Shown one piece after another: positions 1 through 53,697 of a stretch of 64,000 nt of DNA; the stretch's first letter is position 1, and each line of letters opens with the position of its first letter. The notes under the pieces are model-generated. The model searched no databases, was not told the origin of the DNA, and saw nothing but the letters and a program-made list of their open reading frames with translations. This DNA comes from Escherichia coli (lineage in GTDB: Bacteria; Pseudomonadota; Gammaproteobacteria; Enterobacterales; Enterobacteriaceae), in the NCBI RefSeq assembly GCF_003334355.1, contig NZ_QOWP01000017.1. One strand, 5' to 3'. The translations under genes and the position numbers were made by a program.

Positions 1-2
1 TG

Positions 3-1316: not shown

Positions 1317-1325
1317 ACTCCGCAT

Positions 1326-1412
1326 TTGTAGGCAGGATAAGGCGTTTACGCCGCATCCGGCATTTGAGCAGGATGCCTGATGCGACGCTGATAGCGTCTT
1401 ATCAGGCCTACA
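1326..1412. repeat. REP/BIME pair (two inverted REP palindromes) in the cpxA-yiiM gap
   Basis: gtaggcaggataaggcgtttacgccgcatccggca followed by gatgcctgatgcgacgctgatagcgtcttatcaggcctac; canonical E. coli REP sequences. Confidence 0.8.
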
Positions 1413-1421
1413 CTCCGGGGG

Positions 1422-2096
1422 TTATTTTCCCCACAACCGCCGTGAAAAATCTTCGATCTTGCCGCTCAGTCGGCGCTTTTGCATCGTTCGCGTCCAGCTT
1501 TTCGATAACCCGGCGGCGGAGAGTAAACGGTGATACTGATCGTCATCAAACGGCATATGCCATGCGATGGCGGCAGCCTCCTGCACGGTCACATCGCTGA
1601 CACGGGAAACCAACTCCAGCGTCGCGTCCGCAGACACTTTCCCTGGCGCTATCACGCTATACAACCACCCCACTTTACCCGTGTTTTGCATCAACTGCGC
1701 TATGTCACTGATATCAAAATGGTAATTGAGTTTATAGCAAGGCGAGCGCGGCTGACTGACCTGAATTAATGCCTCTCCCCAGCGGAAAATATCGCCCATA
1801 TAAACATTACTTTCCGTGAGACCGTCGGTTGAGAGGTTTTCACCAAACGCAGGCGCAACAAACAACTCCGCCTGTTCCGGGAATTCCCGCGCCCAGTAGA
1901 GATAATGCTCACGAGGATAATGACACAGCGCTCTGTCTGGCCCGCCGTGAACCTTTTTCTCCGCCTGCTCGTCACCTTCCAGCCCCAGCTCCGTCAGCAT
2001 CAACTCACCATCAACCTGGATTTTGGCAATTGCGCTGGGTTTGCCTTCGGGATAAGCCTGAATCTTGCCTGTGTATACATCAACCGGATATCGCAT
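1422..2096 (-). CDS. yiiM: MOSC-domain protein YiiM
   Basis: 234-aa ORF; internal Met giving 224 aa (MRYPVDVYTGKIQ...) matches the recalled YiiM length; conserved position next to cpxA. Confidence 0.85.
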   Translation of the reverse strand: MRYPVDVYTGKIQAYPEGKPSAIAKIQVDGELMLTELGLEGDEQAEKKVHGGPDRALCHYPREHYLYWAREFPEQAELFVAPAFGENLSTDGLTESNVYMGDIFRWGEALIQVSQPRSPCYKLNYHFDISDIAQLMQNTGKVGWLYSVIAPGKVSADATLELVSRVSDVTVQEAAAIAWHMPFDDDQYHRLLSAAGLSKSWTRTMQKRRLSGKIEDFSRRLWGK

Positions 2097-2244
2097 CTGT
2101 TCCCTCTCCACGAGAAATTTCCCCATTAGACCATATTTATTTTATGTCAGGCGTGCTGTTTTCGCGGTAAGTATCCAGGCAGGAACTCAATAGCAAACCG
2201 GACGAACGTTAGTTCATCCGGCTGTGGGGATTAAGGAAGCAGGT

Positions 2245-3228
2245 TTATTTCACCGTACCTAAAATTTCGATTTTCGCTGCTCTGGCTTTGACTTTACGTG
2301 ACCAGATAGAGGTAAGAATTGGCACCAGAATCGAAGTCACAATGACCGCCGTCGCTACCAGCGAAGTTGCTGCCGGAGCCATCGGTTTAAACGCAGGCAC
2401 CATTTCTGCAATCAGCACAGGTGTCGCTACCGCGGCCCCTGCGGAACTGGAAGCGGCAATTCCGGCAGTGCCATCGCCACCGCCAATCAATTTATCGGCG
2501 ATAATCAACGGAATACCGGTCACGATAATTACTGCCACACCCAACAGGATCCCCAGCAAACCTGTCTGGGCAATTACAGTCAAATCAATGGTATTGCCCA
2601 GCGCGAAGGCAAAAAATGGAATCAGCGTCTGCACCGCTTTGCTGAAAAATTCTCGTAATTCAGGGTCAAGGTTCCCAAGGGCAAAGCCCACCAGGAACGG
2701 TAATACTGCGCCGACGAAAACATGCGGTTCAAACGAGGCAATCCCGGCAGTGCCCAGAATAATCATCGTCATGAGCGGCCCGGACTCCAATGACATCAAC
2801 ACAAATGCCCCAGCTTCTTCTTTTGTGCCGTACTGCTGCATGATGGAAGCGTAAAGTCCGCCGTTGGTCATATCCATCGCCGCCACCAGCGCCAGCGTTG
2901 AAAGTCCGGCAAAGAATCCAACTTCAACACCATGTTCCGGAATAATGCGCGAGGCAATTGCCGCAACCACCCACGCGACGGCAATTTTTGTTACCACCAG
3001 CGTACCGGATTTACGCAGTACCGTTCCCGTCGCGCTTAATTTTATTGACGCCCCCATGCAAAAAAACCACACCGCCAGAATGGGCACCGTACCGGTAATC
3101 ATCCCGTTGGTGAATGATCCAAAATATTTCCCCGCCCCCGGCGAGAAGGTGTGGCACAGTGCGCCAAGGAATAGCGGGACGAGCATCATCCCCCCCGGGA
3201 TTTTCTCAATCGAGCGTTTTATCTGCAT
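2245..3228 (-). CDS. kdgT: 2-keto-3-deoxygluconate permease
   Basis: 330-aa ORF, 327 aa from [13 protein letters not shown]...; highly hydrophobic multi-pass membrane protein. Confidence 0.9.
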
Positions 3229-3348
3229 TTCCATCACCTGTCGGCATATTTTTAAGGGCTGATGCGTAATTCCTCAATGGAGCATCAGTGTTGATGGAAA
3301 CGAAGATAGACATTCATTTAATCAATAAAAGTGATCAAAACCACATCA

Positions 3349-3369
3349 ATTGAAACACTGTTTTATTTT
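3349..3369. promoter_or_regulatory. KdgR-operator-like palindrome upstream of kdgT
   Basis: aattgaaacactgttttattt resembles the KdgR box (AAATGAAACA..TGTTTCATTT-type) and sits in the kdgT 5' region. Confidence 0.4.
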
Positions 3370-3402
3370 TATCGGATCATTGTTTTTATTTTGAAATTGA
3401 TC

Positions 3403-3440
3403 ACAAAAAAACCACCGCCGTTGGCGATGGTTCATTTTTT
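3403..3440 (-). terminator. Rho-independent terminator downstream of sodA
   Basis: Minus-strand hairpin accatcgcc/ggcggtggt followed by a U-run, and preceded by an A-run, directly after the sodA stop. Confidence 0.6.
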
Positions 3441-3487
3441 AAGCTGATATGCGGCGTAAACGCCTCATTGCAGCAGGCGGCAAATGA

Positions 3488-4108
3488 TTATTTTTTCGCC
3501 GCGAAACGTGCCGCTGCTTCATCCCAGTTCACCACGTTCCAGAACTCTTTGATGTAGTCCGGACGGCGGTTCTGGAATTTCAGGTAGTAAGCATGTTCCC
3601 ACACATCCAGGCCCAGAATCGGGAAGCCGGAAGCGCCAGAAATAGCTTCACCCATCAGCGGAGAATCCTGGTTAGCAGTAGAAACCACCGCCAGTTTATC
3701 GCCTTTCAGCACCAGCCATGCCCAGCCGGAACCAAAGCGGGAAGCTGCCGCTTTTTCAAATTCTGCTTTGAAGTTATCAACGGAGCCGAAGTCACGTTCG
3801 ATAGCCGCTTTCAGGTCACCCTGCAGGGTGGTGCCTTTTTTCAGACCTTTCCAGAACAGGCTGTGGTTAGCGTGACCGCCAGCGTTGTTGCGCAGTACGG
3901 TTTTCTTGTCTGCTGGCAGCTGGTCCAGTTTGGTGATCAGCTCTTCAACCGGCAGGTTGGCAAATTCTGGCAGGCTTTCCAGCGCCGCGTTGGCGTTGTT
4001 TACGTAGGTCTGATGGTGTTTGGTGTGGTGGATTTCCATGGTCTGCTCATCGAAGTGCGGTTCCAGGGCATCGTAAGCATACGGCAGGGATGGCAGGGTA
4101 TAGCTCAT
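3488..4108 (-). CDS. sodA: Manganese superoxide dismutase
   Basis: 206 aa from [20 protein letters not shown]...; classic Mn/Fe-SOD sequence with metal ligands in DVWEHAYY. Confidence 0.95.
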
Positions 4109-4160
4109 ATTCATCTCCAGTATTGTCGGGCGGCCGATTGTTAATGCCGCGTAAGCAGTT

Positions 4161-4202
4161 GGTTCATTATAGTTAATTAAATGATATTGAAAATGATTAT
4201 CA
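4161..4202. promoter_or_regulatory. sodA promoter region with Fur-box-like AT-rich dyad
   Basis: Minus-strand gataatcattttcaatatcatttaattaac resembles the GATAATGATAATCATTATC Fur consensus; sodA is an established Fur target. Confidence 0.4.
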
Positions 4203-4392
4203 ATGCCGTACTTTTCGTAAGGGTATGGTTTTGCAGGAAAATGCCCGAGATGTGAAGCAAATCACCCACTTAATGCCGTGATTGCCAGTAAATCGACAAC
4301 GGCGGCAACAGGCGAAAGGTTAATCGACAGCACGATTTTTACACTCATCTCGTCGGAGATGTGAAGCGACGAAAAATGATGAGGATAAGAAG

Positions 4393-5427
4393 ATGAGTAA
4401 CGCGATTACGATGGGGATATTTTGGCATTTGATCGGCGCGGCCAGTGCAGCCTGTTTTTACGCTCCGTTCAAAAAAGTAAAAAAATGGTCATGGGAAACC
4501 ATGTGGTCAGTCGGTGGGATTGTTTCGTGGATTATTCTGCCGTGGGCCATCAGCGCCCTGTTACTACCGGATTTCTGGGCGTATTACAGCTCGTTTAGTC
4601 TCTCTACGCTGCTGCCTGTTTTTCTGTTCGGCGCTATGTGGGGGATCGGTAATATCAACTATGGCCTGACCATGCGTTATCTCGGCATGTCGATGGGAAT
4701 TGGCATCGCCATTGGCATTACGTTGATTGTCGGTACGCTGATGACGCCAATTATCAACGGCAATTTCGATGTGCTGATTAACACCGAAGGCGGACGCATG
4801 ACGTTGCTCGGCGTTCTGGTGGCGCTGATTGGCGTAGGGATTGTAACTCGCGCCGGGCAGTTGAAAGAGCGCAAGATGGGCATTAAAGCCGAAGAGTTCA
4901 ATCTGAAAAAAGGGCTGGTGCTGGCGGTGATGTGCGGCATTTTCTCTGCCGGGATGTCCTTTGCGATGAACGCCGCAAAACCGATGCATGAAGCCGCTGC
5001 CGCACTTGGCGTCGATCCACTGTATGTCGCTCTGCCAAGCTATGTCATCATCATGGGCGGCGGCGCGATCATCAACCTCGGTTTCTGTTTTATTCGTCTG
5101 GCAAAAGTGAAGGATTTGTCGCTAAAAGCCGACTTCTCGCTGGCAAAACCGCTGATCACTCACAATGTGTTACTCTCAGCACTGGGCGGGTTGATGTGGT
5201 ACCTGCAATTCTTTTTCTATGCCTGGGGCCACGCCCGCATTCCGGCGCAATATGACTACATCAGTTGGATGCTGCATATGAGCTTCTATGTATTGTGCGG
5301 CGGTATCGTCGGGCTGGTGCTGAAAGAGTGGAACAATGCAGGACGCCGTCCGGTAACGGTGTTGAGCCTCGGTTGTGTGGTGATTATTGTCGCCGCTAAC
5401 ATCGTCGGCATCGGCATGGCGAATTAA
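4393..5427 (+). CDS. rhaT: L-rhamnose-proton symporter
   Basis: 344-aa ORF, 10-TM-type hydrophobic protein, conserved position beside rhaR. Confidence 0.95.
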
Positions 5428-6272
5428 TCTTTCTGCGAATTGAGATGACGCCACTGGCTGGGCGTCATCCCGGTTTCCCGGGTAAACACCACCGAAAAAT
5501 AGTTACTATCTTCAAAGCCACATTCGGTCGAAATATCACTGATTAACAGGCGGCTATGCTGGAGAAGATATTGCGCATGACACACTCTGACCTGTCGCAG
5601 ATATTGATTGATGGTCATTCCAGTCTGCTGGCGAAATTGCTGACGCAAAACGCGCTCACTGCACGATGCCTCATCACAAAATTTATCCAGCGCAAAGGGA
5701 CTTTTCAGGCTAGCCGCCAGCCGGGTAATCAGCTTATCCAGCAACGTTTCGCTGGATGTTGGCGGCAACGAATCACTGGTGTAACGATGGCGATTCAGCA
5801 ACATCACCAACTGCCCGAACAGCAACTCAGCCATTTCGTTAGCAAACGACACATGCTGACTACTTTCATGCTCAAGCTGACCGATAACCTGCCGCGCCTG
5901 CGCCATCCCCATGCTACCTAAGCGCCAGTGTGGTTGCCCTGCGCTGGCGTTAAATCCCGGAATCGCCCCCTGCCAGTCAAGATTCAGCTTCAGACGCTCC
6001 GGGCAATAAATAATATTCTGCAAAACCAGATCGTTAACGGAAGCGTAGGAGTGTTTATCGTCAGCATGAATGTAAAAGAGATCGCCACGGGTAATGCGAT
6101 AAGGGCGATCGTTGAGTACATGCAGGCCATTACCGCGCCAGACAATCACCAGCTCACAAAAATCATGTGTATGTTCAGCAAAGACATCTTGCGGATAACG
6201 GTCAGCCACAGCGACTGCCTGCTGGTCGCTGGCAAAAAAATCATCTTTGAGAAGTTTTAACTGATGCGCCAC
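5424..6272 (-). CDS. rhaR: AraC-family activator RhaR
   Basis: 282 aa from an internal GTG (V)[12 protein letters not shown]... inside the 340-aa ORF; cupin plus AraC HTH domains; stop codon overlaps the rhaT stop. Confidence 0.9.
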
Positions 6273-6345
6273 CGTGGCTACCTCGGCCAGAGAACGAAGT
6301 TGATTATTCGCAATATGGCGTACAAATACGTTGAGAAGATTCGCG

Positions 6346-7182
6346 TTATTGCAGAAAACCATCCCGTCCCTGACGAATATCACGCGGTGACCAGTTAAAC
6401 TCTCGGCGAAAAAGCGTCGAAAAGTGGTTACTGTCGCTGAATCCACAGCGATAGGCGATGTCAGTAACGCTGGCCTCGCTGTGGCGTAGCAGATGTCGGG
6501 CTTTCATCAGTCGCAGGCGGTTCAGGTATCGCTGAGGCGTCAGTCCCGTTTGCTGCTTAAGCTGCCGATGTAGCGTACGCAGTGAAAGAGAAAATTGATC
6601 CGCCACGGCATCCCAATTCACCTCATCGGCAAAATGGTCCTCCAGCCAGGCCAGAAGCAAGTTGAGACGTGATGCGCTGTTTTCCAGGTTCTCCTGCAAA
6701 CTGCTTTTACGCAGCAAGAGCAGTAATTGCATAAACAAGATCTCGCGACTGGCGGTCGAGGGTAAATCATTTTCCCCTTCCTGCTGTTCCATCTGTGCAA
6801 CCAGCTGTCGCACCTGCTGCAATACGCTGTGGTTAACGCGCCAGTGAGACGGATACTGCCCATCCAGCTCTTGTGGCAGCAACTGATTCAGCCCGGCGAG
6901 AAACTGAAATCGATCCGGCGAGCGATATAGCACATTGGTCAGACACAGATTATCGGTATGTTCATACAGATGCCGATCATGGTCGCGCACAAAACAGACC
7001 GTGCCACCGGTGATGGTATAGGGCTGCCCATTAAACACATGAATACCCGTGCCATGTTCGACAATCACAATTTCATGAAAATCATGATGATGTTCAGGAA
7101 AATCCGCCTGCGGGAGCCGGGGTTCTATCGCCACGGACGCGTTACCAGACGGAAAAAAATCCACACTATGTAATACGGTCAT
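6346..7182 (-). CDS. rhaS: AraC-family activator RhaS
   Basis: 278 aa [22 protein letters not shown]...; matches RhaS. Confidence 0.95.
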
Positions 7183-10195
<3,013 letters not shown>

Positions 10196-10200
10196 ACACT

Positions 10201-10424
10201 GCCGGATGCGGCGCGAGCGCCTTATCCGGCCTACGGGTCGGCAACAGTTGTAGGCCTGATAAGACGCGACAGCGTCGCATCAGGCATTGATTGCCGGATG
10301 CGGCACAAGTGCCTTATCCGGCCTACAGGTCGGCAATAGTTGTAGGCCTGATAAGACGCGACAGCGTCGCATCAGGCATTGATTGCCGGATGCGGCGCGA
10401 GCGCCTTATCCGGCCTACGGGTCG
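10201..10424. repeat. BIME cluster: about 2.4 tandem copies of a 92-bp unit, each holding two inverted REP palindromes
   Basis: Unit gccggatgcggcgcgagcgccttatccggcctacgggtcggcaacagttgtaggcctgataagacgcgacagcgtcgcatcaggcattgatt begins at 10201, 10293 and 10385. Confidence 0.9.
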
Positions 10425-10461
10425 TGCATCCGACAACACCGAATTTACAGGAACACAGAAC

Positions 10462-35457: not shown

Positions 35458-37494
35458 ATGGATACGCCACGTCCACAGTTATTAGATTTTCAATTTCATC
35501 AGAATAACGACAGTTTTACCCTACATTTTCAACAACGTCTTATTTTAACCCATAGCAAAGATAATCCTTGTTTATGGATTGGCTCAGGTATAGCGGATAT
35601 CGATATGTTCCGCGGTAATTTCAGCATTAAAGATAAACTACAGGAGAAAATTGCGCTTACCGACGCCATCGTCAGCCAGTCACCGGATGGTTGGTTAATT
35701 CATTTCAGCCGTGGTTCTGACATTAGCGCCACGCTGAATATCTCTGCCGACGATCAGGGGCGTTTATTGCTGGAACTACAAAACGACAACCTTAACCACA
35801 ACCGTATCTGGCTGCGCCTTGCCGCTCAACCAGAGGACCATATCTACGGCTGCGGCGAACAGTTTTCCTACTTCGATCTGCGTGGCAAACCGTTCCCGCT
35901 ATGGACCAGTGAACAAGGCGTTGGTCGCAACAAACAAACCTATGTCACCTGGCAGGCCGACTGCAAAGAAAATGCGGGCGGCGACTATTACTGGACTTTC
36001 TTCCCACAGCCTACGTTTGTCAGCACGCAGAAGTATTACTGCCATGTTGATAACAGTTGCTATATGAACTTCGACTTTAGTGCCCCGGAATACCATGAAC
36101 TGGCGCTGTGGGAAGACAAAGCAACGCTGCGTTTTGAATGTGCTGACACATACATTTCCCTGCTGGAAAAATTAACCGCCCTGCTGGGACGCCAGCCAGA
36201 ACTGCCCGACTGGATTTATGACGGAGTAACGCTCGGCATTCAGGGCGGGACGGAAGTGTGCCAGAAGAAACTGGACACCATGCGTAACGCGGGCGTGAAG
36301 GTCAACGGCATCTGGGCGCAGGACTGGTCCGGTATTCGTATGACCTCTTTTGGCAAACGCGTGATGTGGAACTGGAAGTGGAACAGCGAAAACTACCCGC
36401 AACTGGATTCACGCATTAAGCAGTGGAATCAGGAGGGCGTGCAGTTCCTGGCCTATATCAACCCGTATGTTGCCAGCGATAAAGATCTCTGCGAAGAAGC
36501 GGCACAACACGGCTATCTGGCAAAAGATGCCTCTGGCGGTGACTATCTGGTGGAGTTTGGCGAGTTTTACGGCGGCGTTGTCGATCTCACTAATCCAGAA
36601 GCCTACGCCTGGTTCAAGGAAGTGATCAAAAAGAACATGATTGAACTCGGCTGCGGCGGCTGGATGGCTGACTTCGGCGAGTATCTGCCCACCGACACGT
36701 ACCTGCATAACGGCGTCAGTGCCGAAATTATGCATAACGCCTGGCCTGCGCTGTGGGCGAAGTGTAACTACGAAGCCCTTGAAGAAACGGGCAAGCTCGG
36801 CGAGATCCTTTTCTTTATGCGCGCCGGTTCTACCGGTAGCCAGAAATACTCCACCATGATGTGGGCGGGCGACCAGAACGTCGACTGGAGTCTCGACGAT
36901 GGCCTGGCGTCGGTTGTCCCGGCGGCGCTGTCGCTGGCAATGACCGGACATGGCCTGCACCACAGCGACATTGGCGGTTACACCACCCTGTTTGAGATGA
37001 AGCGCAGCAAAGAGCTGCTGCTGCGCTGGTGCGATTTCAGCGCCTTCACGCCGATGATGCGCACCCACGAAGGTAACCGTCCTGGCGACAACTGGCAGTT
37101 TGACGGCGACGCAGAAACCATCGCCCATTTCGCCCGTATGACCACCGTCTTCACCACCCTGAAACCTTACCTGAAAGAGGCCGTCGCGCTGAATGCGAAG
37201 TCCGGCCTGCCGGTTATGCGCCCGCTGTTCCTGCATTACGAAGACGATGCGCACACTTACACCCTGAAATATCAGTACCTGTTAGGTCGCGACATTCTGG
37301 TCGCTCCGGTGCATGAAGAAGGCCGTAGCGACTGGACGCTCTATCTGCCGGAGGATAACTGGGTCCACGCCTGGACGGGTGAAGCGTTCCGGGGCGGGGA
37401 AGTTACCGTTAATGCGCCCATCGGCAAGCCGCCGGTCTTTTATCGCGCCGATAGCGAATGGGCGGCACTGTTCGCGTCGTTAAAAAGCATCTAA
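35458..37494 (+). CDS. yihQ: Sulfoquinovosidase (GH31 alpha-glucosidase family)
   Basis: 678-aa ORF with GH31 catalytic region (WMADFGE, GDQNVDW). Confidence 0.9.
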   Translation: MDTPRPQLLDFQFHQNNDSFTLHFQQRLILTHSKDNPCLWIGSGIADIDMFRGNFSIKDKLQEKIALTDAIVSQSPDGWLIHFSRGSDISATLNISADDQGRLLLELQNDNLNHNRIWLRLAAQPEDHIYGCGEQFSYFDLRGKPFPLWTSEQGVGRNKQTYVTWQADCKENAGGDYYWTFFPQPTFVSTQKYYCHVDNSCYMNFDFSAPEYHELALWEDKATLRFECADTYISLLEKLTALLGRQPELPDWIYDGVTLGIQGGTEVCQKKLDTMRNAGVKVNGIWAQDWSGIRMTSFGKRVMWNWKWNSENYPQLDSRIKQWNQEGVQFLAYINPYVASDKDLCEEAAQHGYLAKDASGGDYLVEFGEFYGGVVDLTNPEAYAWFKEVIKKNMIELGCGGWMADFGEYLPTDTYLHNGVSAEIMHNAWPALWAKCNYEALEETGKLGEILFFMRAGSTGSQKYSTMMWAGDQNVDWSLDDGLASVVPAALSLAMTGHGLHHSDIGGYTTLFEMKRSKELLLRWCDFSAFTPMMRTHEGNRPGDNWQFDGDAETIAHFARMTTVFTTLKPYLKEAVALNAKSGLPVMRPLFLHYEDDAHTYTLKYQYLLGRDILVAPVHEEGRSDWTLYLPEDNWVHAWTGEAFRGGEVTVNAPIGKPPVFYRADSEWAALFASLKSI

Positions 37495-37539
37495 TCACAT
37501 CCGCCCGTGGGGAAACTCATGGGCAAAGGGAGAACATCG

Positions 37540-38924
37540 ATGAGTCACATCACAACGGAAGATCCAGCAACTTTACGCCTGCCCTTTAAAGAGAAACTCT
37601 CTTACGGTATTGGCGACCTGGCCTCTAACATCCTGCTGGATATCGGTACGCTTTATCTTTTGAAGTTTTATACCGACGTTCTGGGGCTGCCAGGCACCTA
37701 TGGCGGCATTATCTTTTTGATTTCAAAATTCTTTACTGCGTTTACCGATATGGGTACCGGCATTATGTTGGATTCCCGACGCAAGATCGGTCCAAAAGGT
37801 AAGTTCCGTCCTTTTATTCTGTATTCGTCATTCCCGGTCACCTTACTGGCGATCGCCAACTTTGTCGGCACACCGTTTGATGTCACCGGTAAAACGGTGA
37901 TGGCCACTATTCTGTTTATGCTTTACGGACTGTTTTTCAGCATGATGAACTGCTCCTACGGCGCAATGGTTCCCGCTATCACCAAAAACCCCAACGAACG
38001 CGCCTCACTGGCGGCATGGCGTCAGGGCGGCGCTACGCTGGGCCTGCTGCTGTGCACGGTGGGATTCGTGCCAGTTATGAATCTTATCGAAGGTAATCAG
38101 CAACTTGGCTATATCTTCGCCGCCACGCTGTTTTCACTGTTTGGCCTGCTGTTTATGTGGATCTGCTACTCGGGCGTGAAAGAGCGTTATGTCGAAACCC
38201 AGCCTGCTAATCCGGCGCAAAAGCCGGGCCTGCTGCAATCTTTCCGCGCAATTGCGGGTAACCGCCCGCTGTTCATTCTGTGCATTGCCAACCTCTGCAC
38301 TTTAGGGGCGTTTAACGTCAAGCTCGCCATCCAGGTCTATTACACCCAGTACGTGCTTAACGATCCCATCCTTTGTCGTATATGGGATTTTTCAGCATGG
38401 GCTGTATTTTCATCGGCGTATTCCTGATGCCTGCCTCAGTCAGACGTTTTGGCAAGAAGAAAGTTTATATCGGCGGCCTGCTGATTTGGGTGCTGGGCGA
38501 TCTGCTCAACTATTTCTTCGGCGGCGGTTCGGTCAGCTTCGTGGCGTTCTCCTGCCTGGCGTTCTTTGGCTCAGCGTTTGTTAACAGCCTGAACTGGGCG
38601 CTGGTTTCCGACACCGTCGAGTACGGCGAGTGGCGCACCGGCGTGCGTTCGGAAGGAACGGTCTACACCGGTTTTACCTTCTTTCGCAAAGTGTCTCAGG
38701 CGCTGGCTGGTTTCTTCCCCGGCTGGATGCTGACGCAAATTGGCTATGTGCCGAACGTCGCACAGGCTGACCACACCATTGAAGGGTTACGCCAGTTGAT
38801 CTTCATCTACCCAAGCGCACTGGCGGTAGTCACCATTGTGGCGATGGGTTGCTTCTACAGCCTGAACGAGAAGATGTATGTCCGCATTGTGGAAGAGATA
38901 GAAGCCCGTAAACGCACGGCGTAA
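37540..38924 (+). pseudogene. yihP: GPH-family transporter YihP disrupted by a -1 frameshift
   Basis: Track ORFs 37507..38427 and 38373..38924 are in different frames; restoring one T near 38365 gives a continuous 461-codon frame (the recalled YihP length) and restores LNDPILLSYMGFFSMGC, which parallels yihO LNDINLLSWMGFFSMGC. Confidence 0.8.
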
Positions 38925-38966
38925 TAATAATAAACGACGCCCTGCGGGGCGTTATAAGGAGTGATT

Positions 38967-40370
38967 ATGTCTGACCATAATCCACTGACATTAAAACTGA
39001 ATCTGCGGGAAAAAATCTCCTATGGTATGGGCGACGTCGGTTCGAATTTAATGCTCTGCATCGGTACTCTGTATCTCCTCAAATTTTATACCGATGAATT
39101 AGGGATGCCTGCTTACTATGGCGGGATTATCTTTCTGGTGGCGAAGTTTTTTACCGCGTTTACCGATATGCTCACCGGATTTTTACTCGACTCGCGGAAA
39201 AATATTGGGCCTAAAGGCAAATTTCGTCCCTTTATTTTATATGCAGCGGTTCCGGCGGCGTTAATTGCAACGCTCCAGTTTATCGCCACCACCTTTTGTT
39301 TGCCGGTTAAAACGACGATTGCCACCGCGCTGTTTATGATGTTTGGACTTTCATACAGTCTGATGAACTGCTCGTATGGTGCGATGATCCCGGCAATTAC
39401 CAAAAACCCGAATGAGCGCGCGCAGCTCGCGGCTTACCGCCAGGGTGGTGCAACCATAGGGCTATTGATTTGTACCGTGGCGTTTATTCCGTTGCAGTCG
39501 CTTTTTTCTGACTCAACCGTCGGTTATGCCTGTGCGGCACTTATGTTCTCCATTGGCGGCTTTATTTTTATGATGCTGTGCTACAGAGGCGTCAAAGAGC
39601 ATTATGTGGACACAACGCCAACCGGACATAAAGCCAGTATTCTCAAATCATTTTGCGCGATATTTCGGAATCCGCCATTGCTGGTTTTATGCATTGCTAA
39701 CTTGTGTACCCTGGCGGCATTTAATATCAAACTGGCGATTCAGGTCTATTACACCCAGTATGTGCTGAATGATATTAATTTATTGTCGTGGATGGGATTC
39801 TTCAGTATGGGATGCATCCTCATCGGCGTATTACTGGTGCCATTAACTGTAAAATGTTTTGGTAAATAACAGGTTTATCTGGCTGGCATGGTGCTGTGGG
39901 CGGTGGGTGATATACTGAATTATTTCTGGGGAAGTAACTCTTTCACTTTCGTCATGTTCTCTTGTGTCGCCTTTTTTGGCACGGCCTTTGTAAACAGCCT
40001 GAACTGGGCACTGGTACCAGATACCGTAGATTACGGTGAATGGAAAACCGGTATTCGTGCCGAAGGTTCTGTTTATACCGGTTATACCTTCTTTCGTAAA
40101 ATTTCTGCCGCACTTGCTGGCTTCTTGCCAGGCATTATGCTGACGCAAATTGGTTATGTTCCCAACATCGCGCAAAGCGATGCGACATTACAGGGTTTGC
40201 GTCAGCTCATTTTTATCTGGCCTTGTGCACTGGCAATTATTGCTGCATTGACGATGGGATTCTTTTACACACTCAATGAAAAACGGTTTGCATTGATTAT
40301 TGAGGAAATCAACCAACGCAAAAATAAAGAGATGGCGACAGAAGAAAAAACGGCTTCCGTAACGTTATAA
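38967..40370 (+). pseudogene. yihO: GPH-family sulfoquinovose transporter YihO interrupted by an in-frame TAA
   Basis: Track ORFs 38961..39869 and 39888..40370 are in the same frame; the full span is 467 codons (the recalled YihO length) except for TAA at 39867..39869 (tttggtaaaTAAcaggtttat; paralog yihP has GKKK at the same position). Confidence 0.8.
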
Positions 40371-40437
40371 ATGTCAATAGCCGCTATTTCCATCCTGGTG
40401 GGTGGCGGCCTCCCTACGTTTAAAAAATGGACTTATT

Positions 40438-41130
40438 ATGAAAAAGATTAATGCAATAATTTTATTATCTTCTCTGACCTCTGCCTCGGTATTTGCTGGC
40501 GCATACGTCGAAAACAGGGAGGCATATAATCTTGCCTCCGATCAGGGCGAGGTTATGCTACGTGTGGGTTATAACTTCGATATGGGCGCGGGTATTATGT
40601 TAACCAATACCTACAACTTTCAGCGAGAAGATGAACTAAAACATGGATATAACGAAATTGAAGGCTGGTATCCGTTATTTAAACCAACCGATAAATTAAC
40701 CATCCAGCCCGGTGGCTTAATTAATGATAAGAGTATCGGTTCGGGTGGTGCAGTGTATCTGGACGTCAACTATAAATTTGTACCATGGTTTAATCTGACA
40801 GTACGAAATCGCTATAACCATAATAACTATAGTTCAACAGATTTGAGCGGGGAACTGGATAATAATGACACCTATGAAATTGGCACCTACTGGAATTTTA
40901 AAATCACCGATAAATTTTCCTATACATTTGAGCCACATTACTTCATGCGAGTGAATGACTTTAATAGTAGCAACGGGAAAGATCATCATTGGGAAATCAC
41001 TAACACCTTCCGTTACCGTATTAATGAACACTGGCTCCCTTATTTCGAATTGCGCTGGTTAGACCGCAACGTCGAACCGTACCACCGCGAGCAAAACCAG
41101 ATCCGTATCGGGACGAAGTATTTCTTCTGA
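40438..41130 (+). CDS. ompL: Outer-membrane porin OmpL
   Basis: 230 aa from MKKINAIILLSSLTSASVFA (signal peptide), beta-barrel-like alternating pattern, C-terminal F. Confidence 0.9.
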   Translation: MKKINAIILLSSLTSASVFAGAYVENREAYNLASDQGEVMLRVGYNFDMGAGIMLTNTYNFQREDELKHGYNEIEGWYPLFKPTDKLTIQPGGLINDKSIGSGGAVYLDVNYKFVPWFNLTVRNRYNHNNYSSTDLSGELDNNDTYEIGTYWNFKITDKFSYTFEPHYFMRVNDFNSSNGKDHHWEITNTFRYRINEHWLPYFELRWLDRNVEPYHREQNQIRIGTKYFF

Positions 41131-41138
41131 TGTGAAAC

Positions 41139-41216
<78 letters not shown>

Positions 41217-41220
41217 TTAA

Positions 41221-42486
41221 TTAAGCTTCAGCCGCCAGCATCTCTTTCTTACGTTGGCTAATACGCTTAACCAGCATTACGGAAACCACCGCACCACTGA
41301 ATGCGAAGCAGGCCATAATGCCAAACACGATTTTGTAGCCAATAATCCCCGGATTTAAATCCAGAATGTAGCCATACAGACTGAAGCAGAACATCGCCGG
41401 AGCGTAACCAATAAAGCTACCCAACGCCATCGCCGCACCTGTTTTATTTTCAGCAATTTTTGCTTCGCCGATAGGTGCAAAAAATACGGCTCGCTGTGTA
41501 AAGACTATCGCGCCAAAGCCCAGCGTACATGCCATCCCTAAATAGACCGGCATACTTTCGTGCGGCAGCATAATCAACAGTACGAGCGCAGCGGTACTAA
41601 TGATAAAGGTGTAGCATAGATATTTACTTGGCGATTTCAGGATCTTATCTGAAATCATGCCACCAATCGGTCCACCAATCATTTTCAGACAGTATTGGTT
41701 AATGATGCCGTAAGCCCCCACCAGCGCAACGGGCAATAGATAGATGTTTTTCAGGAATGGAATGAAGAATGTCAGGCCACAGTAAACCGCGTAAACGAAG
41801 AAGACGTTAAAAGCGATAAGCCAGATAGTTTTGTCTTTCAGCACCGAGGTCATACTGGTGTTTTTCGATGCTCCGTCTTCTTTTTTCACCTCAACGGACG
41901 GTGCCTCTTCTTTGTCATTCAGAACAAAGAAAATGATAATGCCTACGGCAATCACAATAAGGGAATAGAACCAGATGCCTGCTTTAAAACCCAATAAGCC
42001 ACTGCCAAACCAGGTAAATACTGCCAACGCAGAAAATGCCACCACGGTATCGACAATGCCACGCCCTGTTTCGAAGAAGCCAAACAACCGACCTTGTTGT
42101 TCGCTATTGCCCAATCGACTTACCGACTTGAGCAAGACCGGCCAGTTCATCATGTCGCAAGTAACGCCAAATAGCACCCAGACAAAGAGGATGCCCCAAT
42201 ACCCCGGCATTGTCGTCAAATAAACACCCAGTAATCCTGTCGCAATGAGTGAGAATGACATGGTGTATCTGCGCGGTAGTTTATCGGCAAAATAAATAGA
42301 CAGAAAAAAACCCACTGTCGTGACAAATGAGTTTACCGACATAGCATTACCAATTTGACCATTGGTCAAATGGAAATATTCCTGCATCGGGATATAAAAC
42401 GCATCTTTCAGCGACGGTAATTTATAAATTGTACCGCCACACAATGTTAATAGACTAAATAACGCCCATTTCTTTTTCGTGAGCAT
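41221..42486 (-). CDS. yihN: MFS transporter
   Basis: 421-aa polytopic ORF, matches YihN. Confidence 0.9.
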   Translation of the reverse strand: MLTKKKWALFSLLTLCGGTIYKLPSLKDAFYIPMQEYFHLTNGQIGNAMSVNSFVTTVGFFLSIYFADKLPRRYTMSFSLIATGLLGVYLTTMPGYWGILFVWVLFGVTCDMMNWPVLLKSVSRLGNSEQQGRLFGFFETGRGIVDTVVAFSALAVFTWFGSGLLGFKAGIWFYSLIVIAVGIIIFFVLNDKEEAPSVEVKKEDGASKNTSMTSVLKDKTIWLIAFNVFFVYAVYCGLTFFIPFLKNIYLLPVALVGAYGIINQYCLKMIGGPIGGMISDKILKSPSKYLCYTFIISTAALVLLIMLPHESMPVYLGMACTLGFGAIVFTQRAVFFAPIGEAKIAENKTGAAMALGSFIGYAPAMFCFSLYGYILDLNPGIIGYKIVFGIMACFAFSGAVVSVMLVKRISQRKKEMLAAEA

Positions 42487-42587
42487 AACATCCCCTAAGC
42501 GATTTTTAAAATCACTGTTTTATAGGCAATAAGATACCGACCATTCATATGGAATGGTTTTATTAACTGCGTATGAGTTAAAACTTA

Positions 42588-43568
42588 TTAGTGGTTCAGA
42601 AGATGGTTTGCCTCTTGTTTGATTTGTTGTAGTACGTTACGCACATGATTTATCTGATTAATTGCATCTTCTTTTTCTTTACGTAACCGCGCATCCAGTA
42701 AATGATTTTCTGGCAATGGTGTTTCACTCATCTGGCGATAAGGGATCCACGGATTATCATCTTCGTCTTCAAAGCGGAACGCCGGCGCATAGTAATCAAC
42801 CTCTTCTTCCAGGCCATATGCCGTCACCTGCGGCTCATCATCACCCAGGCAGATAAGGTGCGTTAATAACGCTTTGAACGGCATATCACCCTGACCTGAA
42901 ATACAGGCTTTATGACCCAGGCCACCCTGTTCTTTAACGATCAAGGCATCTTTGATATGGACCTGGGTAATATGCGGTGCCATCGTTTTTAAGGCGTCTA
43001 TGGGATGCTCATTTGCATTGATCATGTTCGCAAAATCAAACAGTAAGGAAAGAGACTCCATCTCACTTTCTTTGACCAGCGACACCAGCTCATGACTTTT
43101 TAAATCTTCATGCTGCTCGATCGTAAAAGTCAGGCCGCTGTCCTGATACGTTTCCCGTACATAGGCAATGTCGTTAGCGATAATCGATAATACGTCGCGC
43201 AAATTACCTTCATAACGTGGATAAAAACGTACGGACGATGCCCCAGTTTTCAACGCGATGGCGACGGCTTCGTCAATAGATGCCTTATCTGAGGCGCTGG
43301 TTTCAATATGAATATCAAGGTTCAGACGGCGGGCTTTATCTCCAAAGGCAGAGAGTTCTTTATCGTCCATATTACCAAGAGAAAAACGCTCGCCATCCAG
43401 AACATGGATTTTGACGCCACGTAGATTATTTTCACTTGCGATATCAAGTAAATCAGCAGGCAACACTCTTTCCAGCCGCATATTTAAATGAAAGGCATAA
43501 GCATGTAAATAAAGAGGAAGAGTGTCGACACGTTGTAGAATCTTTCTTGCGTTATTTATTGTCACCAT
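42588..43568 (-). CDS. yihM: Sugar-phosphate isomerase/epimerase (xylose-isomerase-like TIM barrel)
   Basis: 326-aa ORF, conserved position. Confidence 0.85.
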   Translation of the reverse strand: MVTINNARKILQRVDTLPLYLHAYAFHLNMRLERVLPADLLDIASENNLRGVKIHVLDGERFSLGNMDDKELSAFGDKARRLNLDIHIETSASDKASIDEAVAIALKTGASSVRFYPRYEGNLRDVLSIIANDIAYVRETYQDSGLTFTIEQHEDLKSHELVSLVKESEMESLSLLFDFANMINANEHPIDALKTMAPHITQVHIKDALIVKEQGGLGHKACISGQGDMPFKALLTHLICLGDDEPQVTAYGLEEEVDYYAPAFRFEDEDDNPWIPYRQMSETPLPENHLLDARLRKEKEDAINQINHVRNVLQQIKQEANHLLNH

Positions 43569-43575
43569 AAAACAC

Positions 43576-44286
43576 CTACAGATTAATGATGAGGTCTACG
43601 GCCTCAAATCGCCAATATTCAATATCTATCTGGACAATATTGCCTTGCTGGTCGGCGCGATGCTTTTCAATTAAGATCGCTGGCATACCCGCAGAACCGC
43701 CAAGATACTTGCTGATATCGCCCGGCATTCTGACGGGTTTGAAAATCAATTTTTTTACTACCGTCTCTTTTTGGTAGCACTTTTCCCAGACTGCAGAAAA
43801 TGAGTGGTTTTCAAGTTGTTCAATAAAACCCGGAGCAACTTCAGGATTAATATATGTTTCGTGATAGAAAACTTTATGTCCTTCCAGCGCCCCCCAGCCG
43901 GTGATGCGATAGAGTTCAGTTGATGGTGTCACTGCAATCAGTGGCGCGAGCGTCTCGGGAATATCGCTGGTACGGTTTTTCTCGGTAAACCCCCAGGAAG
44001 GCTCTCGTCCTTGCTCAATTGCGGCCCGCTGAAAGCTCGCTGACAGCTCCGGACTGTAATTAAATCGCGGCTGGGTCACGAACCACCCCTTACGATCCTT
44101 ACGGAAGATTTTGGATTCTGCCTCGAGGTTCAACAACGCCTGGCGCAGCGTCATACGTTTAATGCCCAGCAGTTCTCCCAGCTCTCTTTCTGAAGGGAGT
44201 TTTCCACCCGGCGTGGTGATGCCATCTTTCAACCACCGATCCAGTTTCTCTTTTGCATTTTCTACGGTGGATTGATTCTCCGCCAT
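43576..44286 (-). CDS. yihL: GntR-family transcriptional regulator
   Basis: 236-aa ORF with N-terminal winged HTH (LPSERELGELLGIKRMTLRQAL). Confidence 0.9.
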   Translation of the reverse strand: MAENQSTVENAKEKLDRWLKDGITTPGGKLPSERELGELLGIKRMTLRQALLNLEAESKIFRKDRKGWFVTQPRFNYSPELSASFQRAAIEQGREPSWGFTEKNRTSDIPETLAPLIAVTPSTELYRITGWGALEGHKVFYHETYINPEVAPGFIEQLENHSFSAVWEKCYQKETVVKKLIFKPVRMPGDISKYLGGSAGMPAILIEKHRADQQGNIVQIDIEYWRFEAVDLIINL

Positions 44287-44452
44287 TGTTTAATCCTTTT
44301 GGTTTAAACCAGATGAAGCATCTTACGCTTACGCCAAAAAAGAAAGCAATTAACGGTGTATGACTTTGCAGATAATTGTGACAAAGCTCTCTATTGACGT
44401 AATCACAGACTTATAAGGGAGATACTCGCATTGGTGTGCGCTCACGACAGGT

Positions 44453-44485
44453 AAAAAAAAACCTGCCAGCGATGGCAGGTTTTTT
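44453..44485 (-). terminator. Rho-independent terminator of typA (symmetrical A/T tracts, possibly bidirectional)
   Basis: aaaaaaaaa cctgccagcgatggcagg tttttt. Confidence 0.7.
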
Positions 44486-44502
44486 ATAACTAAAAAACGA
44501 AA

Positions 44503-46326
44503 TTAATCGTCTTTCGGTGCGCGGTTAGCGCGACGACGATCGTTTTCCGTCAGGTGACGTTTACGAATACGGATAGAGGTTGGAGTCACTTCTACCAGTT
44601 CGTCATCATCGATGAACTCCAGAGCTTGTTCCAGAGTCATGCGGATAGGCGGAACCAGAACAACGGCTTCGTCAGTACCGGAAGCACGCATGTTGGTCAG
44701 TTTCTTACCGGTCAGGCAGTTTACCGTCAGGTCGTTAGAGCGGCTATGAATACCGATAATCTGACCTTCGTAAACTTCTGCACCGTGACCGAGGAACAGC
44801 TTACCGCGATCCTGCAGACCGAACAGCGCGAACGCGACCGCTTTACCCTGACCGTTAGAGATCAGTACGCCGTTCTGACGCTGGCCCACTTCACCCGGAC
44901 GTACGTCGTCGTAGTGGCTGAAGGTGGAGTACAGCAGACCAGTACCGGAAGTCATGGTCATGAACTCAGAACGGAAGCCAATCAGACCACGGCTTGGGAT
45001 CACGTAGTCGAGACGTACGCGGCCTTTACCGTCTGGATTCATGTTTTTCAGGTCGCCTTTACGTTCGCCCAGCGCCTGCATCACAGAACCCTGATGCTGT
45101 TCTTCAACGTCCAGCGTCACGTTTTCATACGGCTCTTGTTTACGACCGTCGATTTCACGGAAGATTACTTTCGGACGGGATACCGCCAGTTCGAAACCTT
45201 CACGACGCATGTTTTCGATCAGAACAGACAGGTGCAGTTCGCCACGACCAGAAACGCGGAACGCATCGGCGTCTTCGGTTTCTTCTACGCGCAGCGCAAC
45301 GTTGTGTACCAGTTCTTTGTTCAGACGATCCAGGATCTGACGAGACGTTACGAACTTACCTTCTTTACCGCAGAACGGCGAGGTGTTAACGCAGAAGAAC
45401 ATAGAAACGGTCGGCTCATCAACGGAGAGTGCCGGCAGCGCTTCAACGTTTTGCGTGTCGCAAACGGTGTCAGAAATGTTCAGTTCGCCCAGGCCCGTGA
45501 TCGCCACGATATCGCCAGCTTCCGCCAGGTCGGTTTCGATACGTTCCAGACCGAGGTGGCCCAGCACTTTACCGACTTTCGCGTTGCGGGTTTTGCCTTC
45601 GCTATCGATGATAGTGACCTGCTGGTTCGGCTTCACTTTACCGCGCTTGATGCGGCCAATGCCGATAACGCCAACATAGCTGTTGTAATCGAGCTGAGAA
45701 ATCTGCATCTGGAACGGACCGTCAAGGTCAACGTCCGGCGCAGGAACGTGGTCAACAATCGCCTGGTACAGCGGGGTCATGTCTTCCGCCATATCTTCGT
45801 GGTCCAGACCCGCGATACCGTTCAGCGCAGAAGCGTAAACGATCGGGAAGTCCAGCTGCTCGTCGGTCGCGTCGAGGTTAACGAACAGATCGAATACCTG
45901 ATCCACAACCCAATCAGGACGCGCGCCAGGGCGGTCAACTTTGTTGATAACAACAATCGGCTTCAGGCCGTAAGCAAACGCTTTTTTGGTTACGAAGCGC
46001 GTTTGCGGCATCGGGCCGTCAAATGCGTCAACCACCAGCAGCACTGAGTCTACCATGGACATTACACGTTCAACTTCACCACCGAAGTCGGCGTGCCCCG
46101 GGGTATCAACGATGTTGATACGGTAATCATTCCATTTGATAGCGGTGTTTTTCGCGAGGATGGTAATCCCACGCTCTTTCTCCAAATCGTTGGAGTCCAT
46201 CACGCGCTCTTGGGTTTCGGCACGAGAGTCGAACGTACCGGATTGTTGGAGCAGCTTGTCTACCAGGGTGGTTTTACCATGGTCTACGTGCGCGATGATG
46301 GCGATATTACGCAATTTTTCGATCAC
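44503..46326 (-). CDS. typA: Ribosome-associated translational GTPase TypA/BipA
   Basis: 607 aa; G-motifs [18 protein letters not shown]. Confidence 0.95.
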
Positions 46327-53452: not shown

Positions 53453-53697
53453 AAGAAAAAAGGCGACAGATTACTCTGTCGCCTTTTTTCCTGACTCATA
53501 ACCCTTAACGGGTCTTACAATCCTTGCAGGCCGCCAACACACCCTGTTTTTCCTTTAGCCGGAACAATCCGTGTTGATTCCATTTCCGTTTAATTACGTC
53601 TCCGGACGTTTGTCTTCCTGACAATCCTCTGTCTTCGCCTCCTGGCGCTCCTGACCCTCATCCTGAGTCATTGTTCCTGTTAGCGTCCTCGCTCTAT
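53453..53697 (-). ncRNA. csrC: CsrC small RNA (CsrA-sequestering)
   Basis: Minus-strand sequence begins atagagcgaggacgctaacaggaacaatgactcaggatgagggtcaggagcgccaggaggcgaagacagaggattgtcaggaagac..., has multiple GGA motifs and ends in terminator ggcgacagagtaatctgtcgcc plus U-run; matches CsrC as I recall it. Confidence 0.9.

What the first reader, a model, noticed from the sequence alone, without database searches (positions are those of the whole stretch)
38350..38430. yihP (GPH transporter of the sulfoquinovose cluster) carries a -1 frameshift in a T-run
The yihP frame ends at 38427 (LNDPILCRIWDFSAWAVFSSAYS*) and resumes in another frame. The paralog yihO reads LNDINLLSWMGFFSMGC at the same position, and the shifted yihP frame reads ...MGFFSMGCIFIG. 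Adding one T to cctttgtcg (to ccttttgtcg) gives a continuous frame of exactly 461 codons, the length I recall for K-12 YihP. The lesion is either a genuine inactivating mutation or a homopolymer sequencing error; either way this window differs from the reference state. The other genes of the cluster (yihQ/R/S/T/U/V, csqR) look full-length.
Basis: partly seen in the sequence, partly recalled or inferred. Interest (0 to 1): 0.55.

Follow-up and report, generated by a model that had tools for sequence, protein, structure and literature searches.

The report
Broken sulfoquinovose transporter genes yihP, yihO
This E. coli strain carries a genuine, inherited one-base deletion that breaks the transporter gene yihP, plus an overlooked stop codon in the neighbouring transporter gene yihO, so it probably cannot use the plant sugar sulfoquinovose; this is ordinary gene decay, and the yihP lesion is already annotated in a public genome.

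Summary
The frame break is real. yihP (37540-38924) stops at 38425-38427 and resumes in another frame. Restoring one base gives a 461-aa protein that differs from K-12 YihP only by A96S.

The DNA-level reading was wrong. The lost base is a G (ancestral CTG TTG, now CT- TTG), not a T from a T-run.

The lesion is not a sequencing error:
- The same deletion is in strain PSS-12, where NCBI's annotation pipeline (PGAP) marks yihP "frameshifted".
- It is also in assembly GCA_003293365.1 and in contigs assembled from about 8 sequencing runs.
- It is in only 1 of 3372 complete E. coli genomes, so it marks one small clade.

yihO has AAA->TAA at 39867-39869 (K301*). No complete genome has it, but a 6.9-kb contig shared by 4 sequencing runs is 100% identical to the window.

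A K-12 yihO knockout cannot grow on sulfoquinovose, so the yihO stop is probably the phenotypically decisive lesion.

The window's yihS also carries a rare missense change (G358S). Between the window and PSS-12, protein-altering versus silent changes are 3:0 inside the cluster and 1:7 outside it (p=0.024). This fits relaxed selection on a decaying pathway.

Similar independent lesions occur in other E. coli. Verdict: ordinary pseudogenes, low novelty.

The parts
37540..38924 (+). yihP pseudogene: 1385 bases, one fewer than the intact 1386-base gene
   Evidence: Collinear with MG1655 yihP apart from one gap. PGAP annotates the identical sequence in PSS-12 as 'frameshifted'. Fragments hit Pfam PF13347 MFS_2. 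The repaired protein matches MelB 4m64 at E=4e-35.
38371..38373 (+). Deletion site. Codon 278 now reads CTT; the ancestral sequence was CTG followed by TTG. One G was lost between 38372 and 38373.
   Evidence: Alignment to MG1655: CCTGTTGTCG versus CCT-TTGTCG. Codon table. Only 1 of 3372 complete genomes shares the deletion.
38374..38427 (+). 17 out-of-frame codons (CRIWDFSAWAVFSSAYS) followed by TGA at 38425-38427. The product is 295 aa.
   Evidence: The exact 295-aa product is on record as BEB91859.1 and in Logan assemblies.
38373..38924 (+). Stranded C-terminal coding part of yihP in the original frame (residues 279-461, helices VIII-XII). It has no convincing ribosome-binding site.
   Evidence: ORF listed. 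The only SD-like motif is GGGA at 38384. Hydropathy peak at 277-295. Helix at 276-301 in the low-confidence model.
38967..40370 (+). yihO pseudogene: full length in bases, but with an internal stop
   Evidence: Translation. It differs from PSS-12 YihO only at codon 301.
39867..39869 (+). Nonsense codon TAA (ancestral AAA, Lys301) in yihO. The product is 300 aa and lacks roughly helices IX-XII.
   Evidence: 0 of 2655 complete genomes carry it. The ERR4578542 contig, shared by 4 samples, is 100% identical to window 34259-41165.
34049..34051 (+). yihS codon 358, AGT (Ser) instead of GGT (Gly). A rare missense change that arose on the window's branch; its effect is unknown.
   Evidence: Present in 1 of 3533 complete genomes.
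29280..37494 (.). Rest of the sulfo-EMP cluster, all full-length: csqR 29280-30065 (-), yihV 30099-30995 (-), yihU 31163-32059 (+), yihT 32083-32961 (+), yihS 32978-34219 (+), yihR 34357-35259 (+), yihQ 35458-37494 (+)
   Evidence: Gapless alignment to PSS-12 and PGAP annotation of PSS-12 and MG1655.
40438..41130 (+). ompL (porin), intact. It is the last gene downstream of the two broken transporter genes.
   Evidence: ORF.

Best explanation
These are two genuine, vertically inherited loss-of-function mutations in the two GPH-family permease genes of the E. coli sulfoquinovose (sulfo-EMP) cluster.

Step 1 (shown). In an ancestor shared with strain PSS-12, one G was lost from Leu278 codon CTG of yihP. 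Translation runs 17 codons out of frame and stops at 38425-38427. The 295-aa product ends at the start of transmembrane helix VIII and lacks the last five helices.

Step 2 (shown). Later, in the window's sub-lineage, yihO acquired AAA->TAA at codon 301. Its 300-aa product lacks roughly the last four helices. yihS also acquired G358S.

Step 3 (inferred). Neither truncated permease can transport. A K-12 yihO deletion abolishes growth on sulfoquinovose, so the strain is predicted to be SQ-negative. The premature stop in yihP may also reduce expression of yihO and ompL through polarity.

Step 4 (inferred, weak statistics). Once the pathway was broken, purifying selection on the cluster relaxed and further damaging changes accumulated. 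This is mutational decay of the long yih cassette.
For: Deletion defined base by base against MG1655 and PSS-12. Repair restores a 461-aa protein that matches K-12 YihP except for A96S.

The same deletion occurs in:
- PSS-12, where PGAP marks yihP 'frameshifted';
- GCA_003293365.1;
- Logan contigs from ERR10766742 (2 samples), ERR10677920, SRR24680064 and ERR4578542 (4 samples).

It is present in only 1 of 3372 complete genomes, so it is not a systematic error at this sequence.

The window is collinear with PSS-12 over 64,000 bases, with 14 substitutions and no gaps. Eight of the 14 are synonymous, which looks like natural divergence.

K301* is absent from the ΔG-only carriers and present in the ERR4578542 contig, so the two lesions are nested.

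GPH membership: MelB E=4e-35, with YihP L278 aligned to MelB L267. Hydropathy peak at 277-295 in both paralogs.

A yihO deletion mutant fails to grow on SQ (PMC6278857, citing Denger 2014).

Nonsynonymous:synonymous changes between the window and PSS-12 are 3:0 in the cluster and 1:7 outside it, Fisher one-sided p=0.024.

Independent lesions occur in other lineages. A yihP frameshift is noted in S. flexneri (PMC12330013).
Against: No reads for the window's own assembly were available. Support for K301* comes from one contig sequence shared by 4 runs, which could be repeat sequencing of one isolate.

No expression or growth data exist for this lineage.

YihP's role as DHPS exporter is only proposed, so the phenotypic cost of step 1 is unknown.

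The relaxed-selection test rests on 11 coding changes.

The helix count comes from hydropathy, an alignment to MelB and a low-confidence single-sequence model (pLDDT 44).
Confidence: 0.9

Rival explanations
1. Sequencing or assembly error: the missing base in yihP (and possibly the T at 39867) is an artefact of this assembly, and the genes are intact in the organism.
For: Single-base deletions are a common assembly error. No read data for the window were available. Another genome with a yihP length change (WL1467) also has a frameshifted yihL nearby, which hints that some complete assemblies carry indel errors.
Against: The ancestral site is not a homopolymer (CTGTTG). The identical deletion is present in two NCBI assemblies and about 8 sequencing runs from different projects. 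It is absent from 3371 other genomes with the same local sequence. The window has no other gap against PSS-12 in 64 kb. K301* is a substitution, and it is reproduced in an independently assembled contig.
Confidence: 0.03
2. The frameshifted yihP still gives a functional transporter. This could happen through occasional -1 ribosomal slippage in the 38361-38424 overlap window (for example on the T5 run at 38388), or through co-expression of the N- and C-terminal fragments as a split permease.
For: Both frames are open across 38361-38424, and a TTTTT run lies inside that window. An ATG at 38382 or 38397 could start a 175-180-aa C-terminal fragment, and gene callers do call one. From general knowledge, not tested here: split LacY halves can complement each other.
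Against: The rescue window holds no canonical X XXY YYZ slippery heptamer. There is no convincing Shine-Dalgarno sequence before the internal ATGs, only GGGA at 38384. The break lies inside predicted helix VIII rather than in a loop. The frameshift is confined to one small clade rather than conserved. Further damaging mutations then accumulated in the cluster.
Confidence: 0.04
3. The second hits were selected, not neutral. If YihP exports DHPS, its loss makes sulfoquinovose uptake harmful because sulfonated end products or intermediates build up. Mutations that block uptake (yihO K301*) or the first catabolic step (yihS missense) would then be favoured.
For: The order of events fits: the yihP deletion came first, and yihO and yihS changes followed in descendants. 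Two descendants each carry a different yihS missense change, G358S in the window and L263Q in PSS-12. All 3 cluster changes between the window and PSS-12 alter the protein.
Against: The same 3:0 pattern is expected from simple neutral decay. Five of the ΔG-carrier contigs examined, from about 6 samples, keep an intact yihO. UPEC-245U/190328 has a yihO frameshift plus a yihS internal stop with yihP intact, so multi-hit decay does not need prior loss of yihP. WL1467 has a frameshifted yihP with yihO and yihS intact. YihP's exporter role is untested.
Confidence: 0.15

Closest known systems
yihP pseudogene of E. coli PSS-12 (NZ_AP027697.1, locus AABK13_RS13615, PGAP note 'frameshifted')
   Same: Identical allele. 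The 1431 bases spanning the gene are 100% identical, with the same G deletion. The neighbourhood is the same over 64 kb, with 14 substitutions.
   Different: PSS-12 keeps an intact 467-aa yihO and Gly358 in yihS, and has its own yihS L263Q.
Intact YihP (b3877, 461 aa) and YihO (b3876, 467 aa) of E. coli K-12, GPH-family permeases of the sulfo-EMP pathway
   Same: Orthologous genes in the same operon order (yihU-T-S-R-Q-P-O-ompL). The repaired YihP differs by A96S, and YihO by A18S plus the stop.
   Different: In the window both reading frames are interrupted: YihP at codon 278 and YihO at codon 301.
Short yih cassette (yihTUVW) of E. coli Nissle 1917 and many pathogenic strains (PMC12608037)
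   Same: Another natural route by which E. coli loses the uptake and early steps of sulfoquinovose catabolism. 1534 of 5426 complete genomes have no yihP at all.
   Different: There the loss is a block deletion or replacement of ompL-yihOPQRS. Here the long cassette is structurally complete and is being inactivated by point mutations.
Other point or IS lesions in the cluster: S. flexneri yihP frameshift (PMC12330013); WL1467 yihP +1; UPEC-245U/190328 yihO frameshift plus yihS stop; IS5 or IS1 insertions in yihO (2017.10.01CC, fS25a)
   Same: Independent inactivation of the same transporter genes, sometimes with several hits in one cluster.
   Different: Different sites and mutation types. None shares the ΔG or K301* alleles.
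Melibiose permease MelB (PDB 4m64, 7l17), the structural archetype of the GPH family
   Same: Homologous over residues 16-450 (E=4e-35), with the same 12-helix layout inferred.
   Different: A distant paralog with a different substrate. It was used here only to map where the truncations fall.

Membership tests
GPH (glycoside-pentoside-hexuronide):cation symporter family / Pfam MFS_2 (PF13347) | Sequence homology to characterised GPH permeases and a match to the family profile | tested here: met
   Repaired YihP matches MelB 4m64 at E=3.9e-35 over residues 16-450. PF13347 is recorded for all four fragments.
GPH (glycoside-pentoside-hexuronide):cation symporter family / Pfam MFS_2 (PF13347) | A single polypeptide with 12 transmembrane helices | tested here: not met
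   As encoded, YihP stops after 295 aa and YihO after 300 aa. Hydropathy and the low-confidence model place helix VIII at about 276-301. About 5 and about 4 helices are therefore missing.
Pseudogene by frameshift or nonsense mutation | Reading frame interrupted relative to intact orthologs, with near-identical flanking sequence | tested here: met
   One gap against MG1655 in yihP and one AAA->TAA change in yihO. 3371 of 3372 and 2655 of 2655 complete genomes carry the intact state. PGAP flags the identical yihP allele as frameshifted.
Pseudogene by frameshift or nonsense mutation | The lesion is real (reproducible in independent data) rather than an assembly artefact | tested here: met
   ΔG is present in 2 NCBI assemblies and about 8 sequencing runs. 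ΔG plus K301* is present in a contig shared by 4 runs and 100% identical to the window.
Pseudogene by frameshift or nonsense mutation | Loss of function (no transport, no growth on sulfoquinovose) | not testable with these tools
   Inferred from the truncations and from the K-12 yihO deletion phenotype reported in PMC6278857.
Programmed -1 ribosomal frameshift | Slippery heptamer X XXY YYZ in the overlap of the two frames | tested here: not met
   None found in 38361-38424; only a T5 run at 38388.
Programmed -1 ribosomal frameshift | The two-frame arrangement is conserved among orthologs | tested here: not met
   1 of 3372 complete genomes has it. All others encode one continuous frame.
Homopolymer-tract slippage (phase variation or homopolymer sequencing error) | The ancestral sequence has a homopolymer run whose length changed | tested here: not met
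   The ancestral sequence is CCTGTTG and a lone G was lost. The TTT run is a product of the deletion.

The most novel reading that the evidence does not exclude
The nested order of lesions could be natural genetic evidence that YihP is the DHPS exporter. The order is yihP frameshift first, then a yihO nonsense mutation and different yihS missense changes in separate descendants. On this reading, losing YihP makes sulfoquinovose uptake harmful, so selection favours second-site mutations that shut the pathway's entry. This would resemble the selection of galactose-uptake or kinase mutants in galE strains.
Probability: 0.12. Interest if true: 0.4.

Novelty: already known. Interest (0 to 1): 0.15.

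Why it matters
The practical value is in annotation. In this strain both yihP and yihO should be marked as pseudogenes, and the strain should be predicted unable to import sulfoquinovose even though it carries a structurally complete long yih cassette.

For people who score the capacity for sulfoquinovose degradation by gene presence, for example in gut microbiome surveys, this is a reminder that gene presence overestimates function. In evenly spaced samples of 60 complete genomes per gene, 2 had a one-base length change in yihP and 3 had a frameshift, IS insertion or large deletion in yihO.

The small ΔG clade has members with and without the yihO stop. It offers a natural allelic series for testing the still unproven role of YihP as DHPS exporter.

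Tried and rejected
1. SRR10330952 (L008) first appeared to be a fifth carrier of the 300-aa YihO product. Its contig simply ends at window position 39866, and it has the intact G in yihP. It was discarded as evidence.

2. Programmed frameshifting: I searched the 38361-38424 overlap for slippery heptamers and found none. A prfB-like CUU_U +1 site was considered and rejected on arithmetic, because a one-base deletion needs a -1 shift, not a +1 shift.

3. Restart of the C-terminal fragments: no credible Shine-Dalgarno motif near either break.

Its 3D model was not used and no fold search was run. Only the helix segmentation was used, together with hydropathy.

5. I looked in Sharma et al. 2021 (PMC8006165) for a role of YihS Gly358 or Leu263 and found nothing. 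The effect of the missense changes remains unknown.

6. One literature query timed out and was repeated successfully.

7. The large protein-homology and metagenome scans were not used, because exact-sequence look-ups answered the question.

Full report
**What is there.**
The window is E. coli chromosome from cpxA to the 5S rRNA gene, and it contains the sulfoquinovose (sulfo-EMP) cluster. It is collinear with strain PSS-12 (NZ_AP027697.1; human faeces, Ecuador) over all 64,000 bases, with 14 substitutions and no gaps. PGAP annotation of PSS-12 and of MG1655 gives these gene positions:
- csqR 29280-30065 (-)
- yihV 30099-30995 (-)
- yihU 31163-32059
- yihT 32083-32961
- yihS 32978-34219
- yihR 34357-35259
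- yihQ 35458-37494
- yihP 37540-38924
- yihO 38967-40370
- ompL 40438-41130

**Checking the observation.**
The yihP frame from ATG 37540 ends at TGA 38425-38427 with the tail ...LNDPILCRIWDFSAWAVFSSAYS*. A second ORF at 38373-38924 continues as SYMGFFSMGCIFIG.... Adding one base after 38372 gives 461 codons. The repaired protein differs from K-12 YihP only by A96S.

**What the lesion really is.**
Base-by-base alignment to MG1655 shows that the reference reads ATC CTG TTG TCG and the window reads ATC CT- TTG TCG. The lost base is the G of Leu278 codon CTG. It is not a T, and the ancestral site is not a homopolymer.

**Real or artefact.**
A 61-base probe centred on the site is matched exactly by 1 of 3372 complete E. 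coli genomes, namely PSS-12. The other 3371 carry the extra base. PGAP already annotates PSS-12 yihP as a 'frameshifted' pseudogene.

The exact 295-aa truncated product is on record as BEB91859.1 and in Logan assemblies. Contigs encoding it come from these sources:
- PSS-12
- GCA_003293365.1
- ERR10766742 (2 samples)
- ERR10677920
- SRR24680064
- ERR4578542 (4 samples)

All of them carry the deletion at the nucleotide level. Several projects find the same non-homopolymer deletion, and thousands of other genomes with the same local sequence lack it. This is a genuine inherited mutation that marks a small clade.

No complete genome carries this change: 0 of 2655 matches to a 61-base probe are exact. 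However, the 6,907-base contig of ERR4578542, shared by 4 samples, is 100% identical to window 34259-41165 and carries both lesions.

One apparent further carrier, SRR10330952, is a false lead. Its contig merely ends at 39866, and it has the intact yihP G.

The ΔG-only carriers all have AAA at codon 301 of yihO, so the lesions are nested. The yihP deletion is older, and yihO K301* arose within that clade.

**Consequences for the proteins.**
YihP and YihO belong to the GPH family. The repaired YihP aligns to melibiose permease MelB (4m64) at E=3.9e-35 over residues 16-450, with YihP L278 opposite MelB L267. PF13347 is recorded for all the fragments.

Hydropathy gives a transmembrane peak at 277-295 in both paralogs. 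A single-sequence AlphaFold model is too poor for 3D use (pLDDT 44), but it segments a helix at 276-301, with four more helical segments after it.

The YihP product therefore ends at the start of helix VIII and lacks about five helices. The YihO product ends just after helix VIII and lacks about four. The rescue window 38361-38424 has no canonical slippery heptamer, only a T5 run. No credible ribosome-binding site precedes the stranded C-terminal parts. Loss of function is inferred, not measured.

**Likely phenotype.**
According to Burrichter et al. 2018, citing Denger et al. 2014, a K-12 yihO deletion fails to grow on sulfoquinovose. YihO is regarded as the importer, and YihP 'most likely' exports DHPS (PMC6278857). 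Other sources describe YihP as not experimentally characterised (bioRxiv 10.1101/2021.11.10.468170; review PMC12890257).

The yihO stop, not the yihP frameshift, is therefore the lesion with a documented phenotype. The strain is predicted to be unable to use sulfoquinovose.

**Signs of decay.**
I polarised the 14 window/PSS-12 differences with MG1655. Eight arose on the window's branch:
- 4 synonymous;
- 2 intergenic;
- yihS G358S;
- yihO K301*.

PSS-12's own branch includes yihS L263Q and a frvX missense change.

Between the two strains, nonsynonymous:synonymous changes are 3:0 in the cluster and 1:7 outside it, Fisher one-sided p=0.024. Adding yihQ T600I and A66A from other ΔG carriers gives 4:1 against 1:7, p=0.032. 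The numbers are small, but they fit relaxed purifying selection after the first hit. yihS G358S is itself rare, present in 1 of 3533 complete genomes. Its effect is unknown.

**How unusual this is.**
It is not unusual.
- 1534 of 5426 complete genomes have no yihP at all. This matches the published 'short cassette' variant (PMC12608037).
- In an evenly spaced sample of 60 genomes, yihP had a one-base length change in 2: PSS-12 and WL1467. PGAP marks WL1467 yihP 'frameshifted'.
- In the corresponding yihO sample, 3 of 60 had disruptive lesions: a -1 frameshift in UPEC-245U/190328, an IS1 insertion in fS25a, and a large deletion in PM7.
- UPEC-245U/190328 also has an internal stop in yihS.
- Strain 2017.10.01CC has IS5 inserted in yihO.
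- A frameshifted yihP in S. flexneri is noted in the literature (PMC12330013).

**Rival readings.**
- Sequencing error is effectively excluded by the evidence above.
- Functional rescue by slippage or by a split permease has no supporting signal.
- A more interesting idea is that loss of the putative exporter YihP makes SQ uptake harmful and selects for loss of yihO or yihS. The order of events fits this, but neutral decay explains it equally well. Most ΔG carriers keep yihO intact. Multi-hit decay also occurs in a lineage with intact yihP.

**Verdict.**
It is wrong about the base and the mechanism, and it is incomplete because yihO is also broken. This is ordinary pseudogene formation in an accessory catabolic cluster, and the yihP allele is already annotated as such in RefSeq. 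Interest is low.

Noticed in passing
window 39867-39869 (yihO codon 301): AAA->TAA nonsense mutation truncates YihO, the sulfoquinovose importer, to 300 aa. It is absent from all complete E. coli genomes searched but present in a Logan contig shared by 4 sequencing runs.
   Followed up: yes
window 34049 (yihS codon 358); PSS-12 difference at window 33765 (yihS codon 263): The window has the rare missense change G358S in the sulfoquinovose isomerase gene (1 of 3533 complete genomes, strain TW14425). Its closest relative PSS-12 carries a different yihS missense change, L263Q. The functional effects are unknown.
   Followed up: partly
window about 10200-10428 (rhaA-rhaD intergenic region): Tandemly repeated units of about 92 bp, about 92% alike. 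MG1655 has 184 bp more here (intergenic 450 bp against 266 bp). This is probably copy-number variation of a REP/BIME-type repeat.
   Followed up: no
window 1-10428 compared with 10200-63941: Identity to MG1655 is 99.0% in the cpxA-rhaA part but 99.84% in the rest. SNPs are also dense around yihN-yihM-yihL-typA (41190-44900). This suggests recombination mosaicism relative to K-12.
   Followed up: no
L016 (UPEC-245U/190328), L014 (2017.10.01CC), L015 (WL1467): Other E. coli lineages show independent lesions in the same cluster: yihO frameshift plus yihS internal stop; IS5 in yihO plus frameshifted yihN; yihP +1 frameshift plus frameshifted yihL.
   Followed up: partly
window about 63931-64000: By correspondence with the PSS-12 annotation, the window ends inside a 5S rRNA gene (rrf) at the edge of an rRNA operon.
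   Followed up: no
window about 25820-25936 and about 53505-53671: PGAP marks two small pseudogene remnants at the corresponding positions in both PSS-12 and MG1655: an incomplete hypothetical protein, and a frameshifted one with an internal stop. They are old, shared relics and are unrelated to the finding.
   Followed up: no
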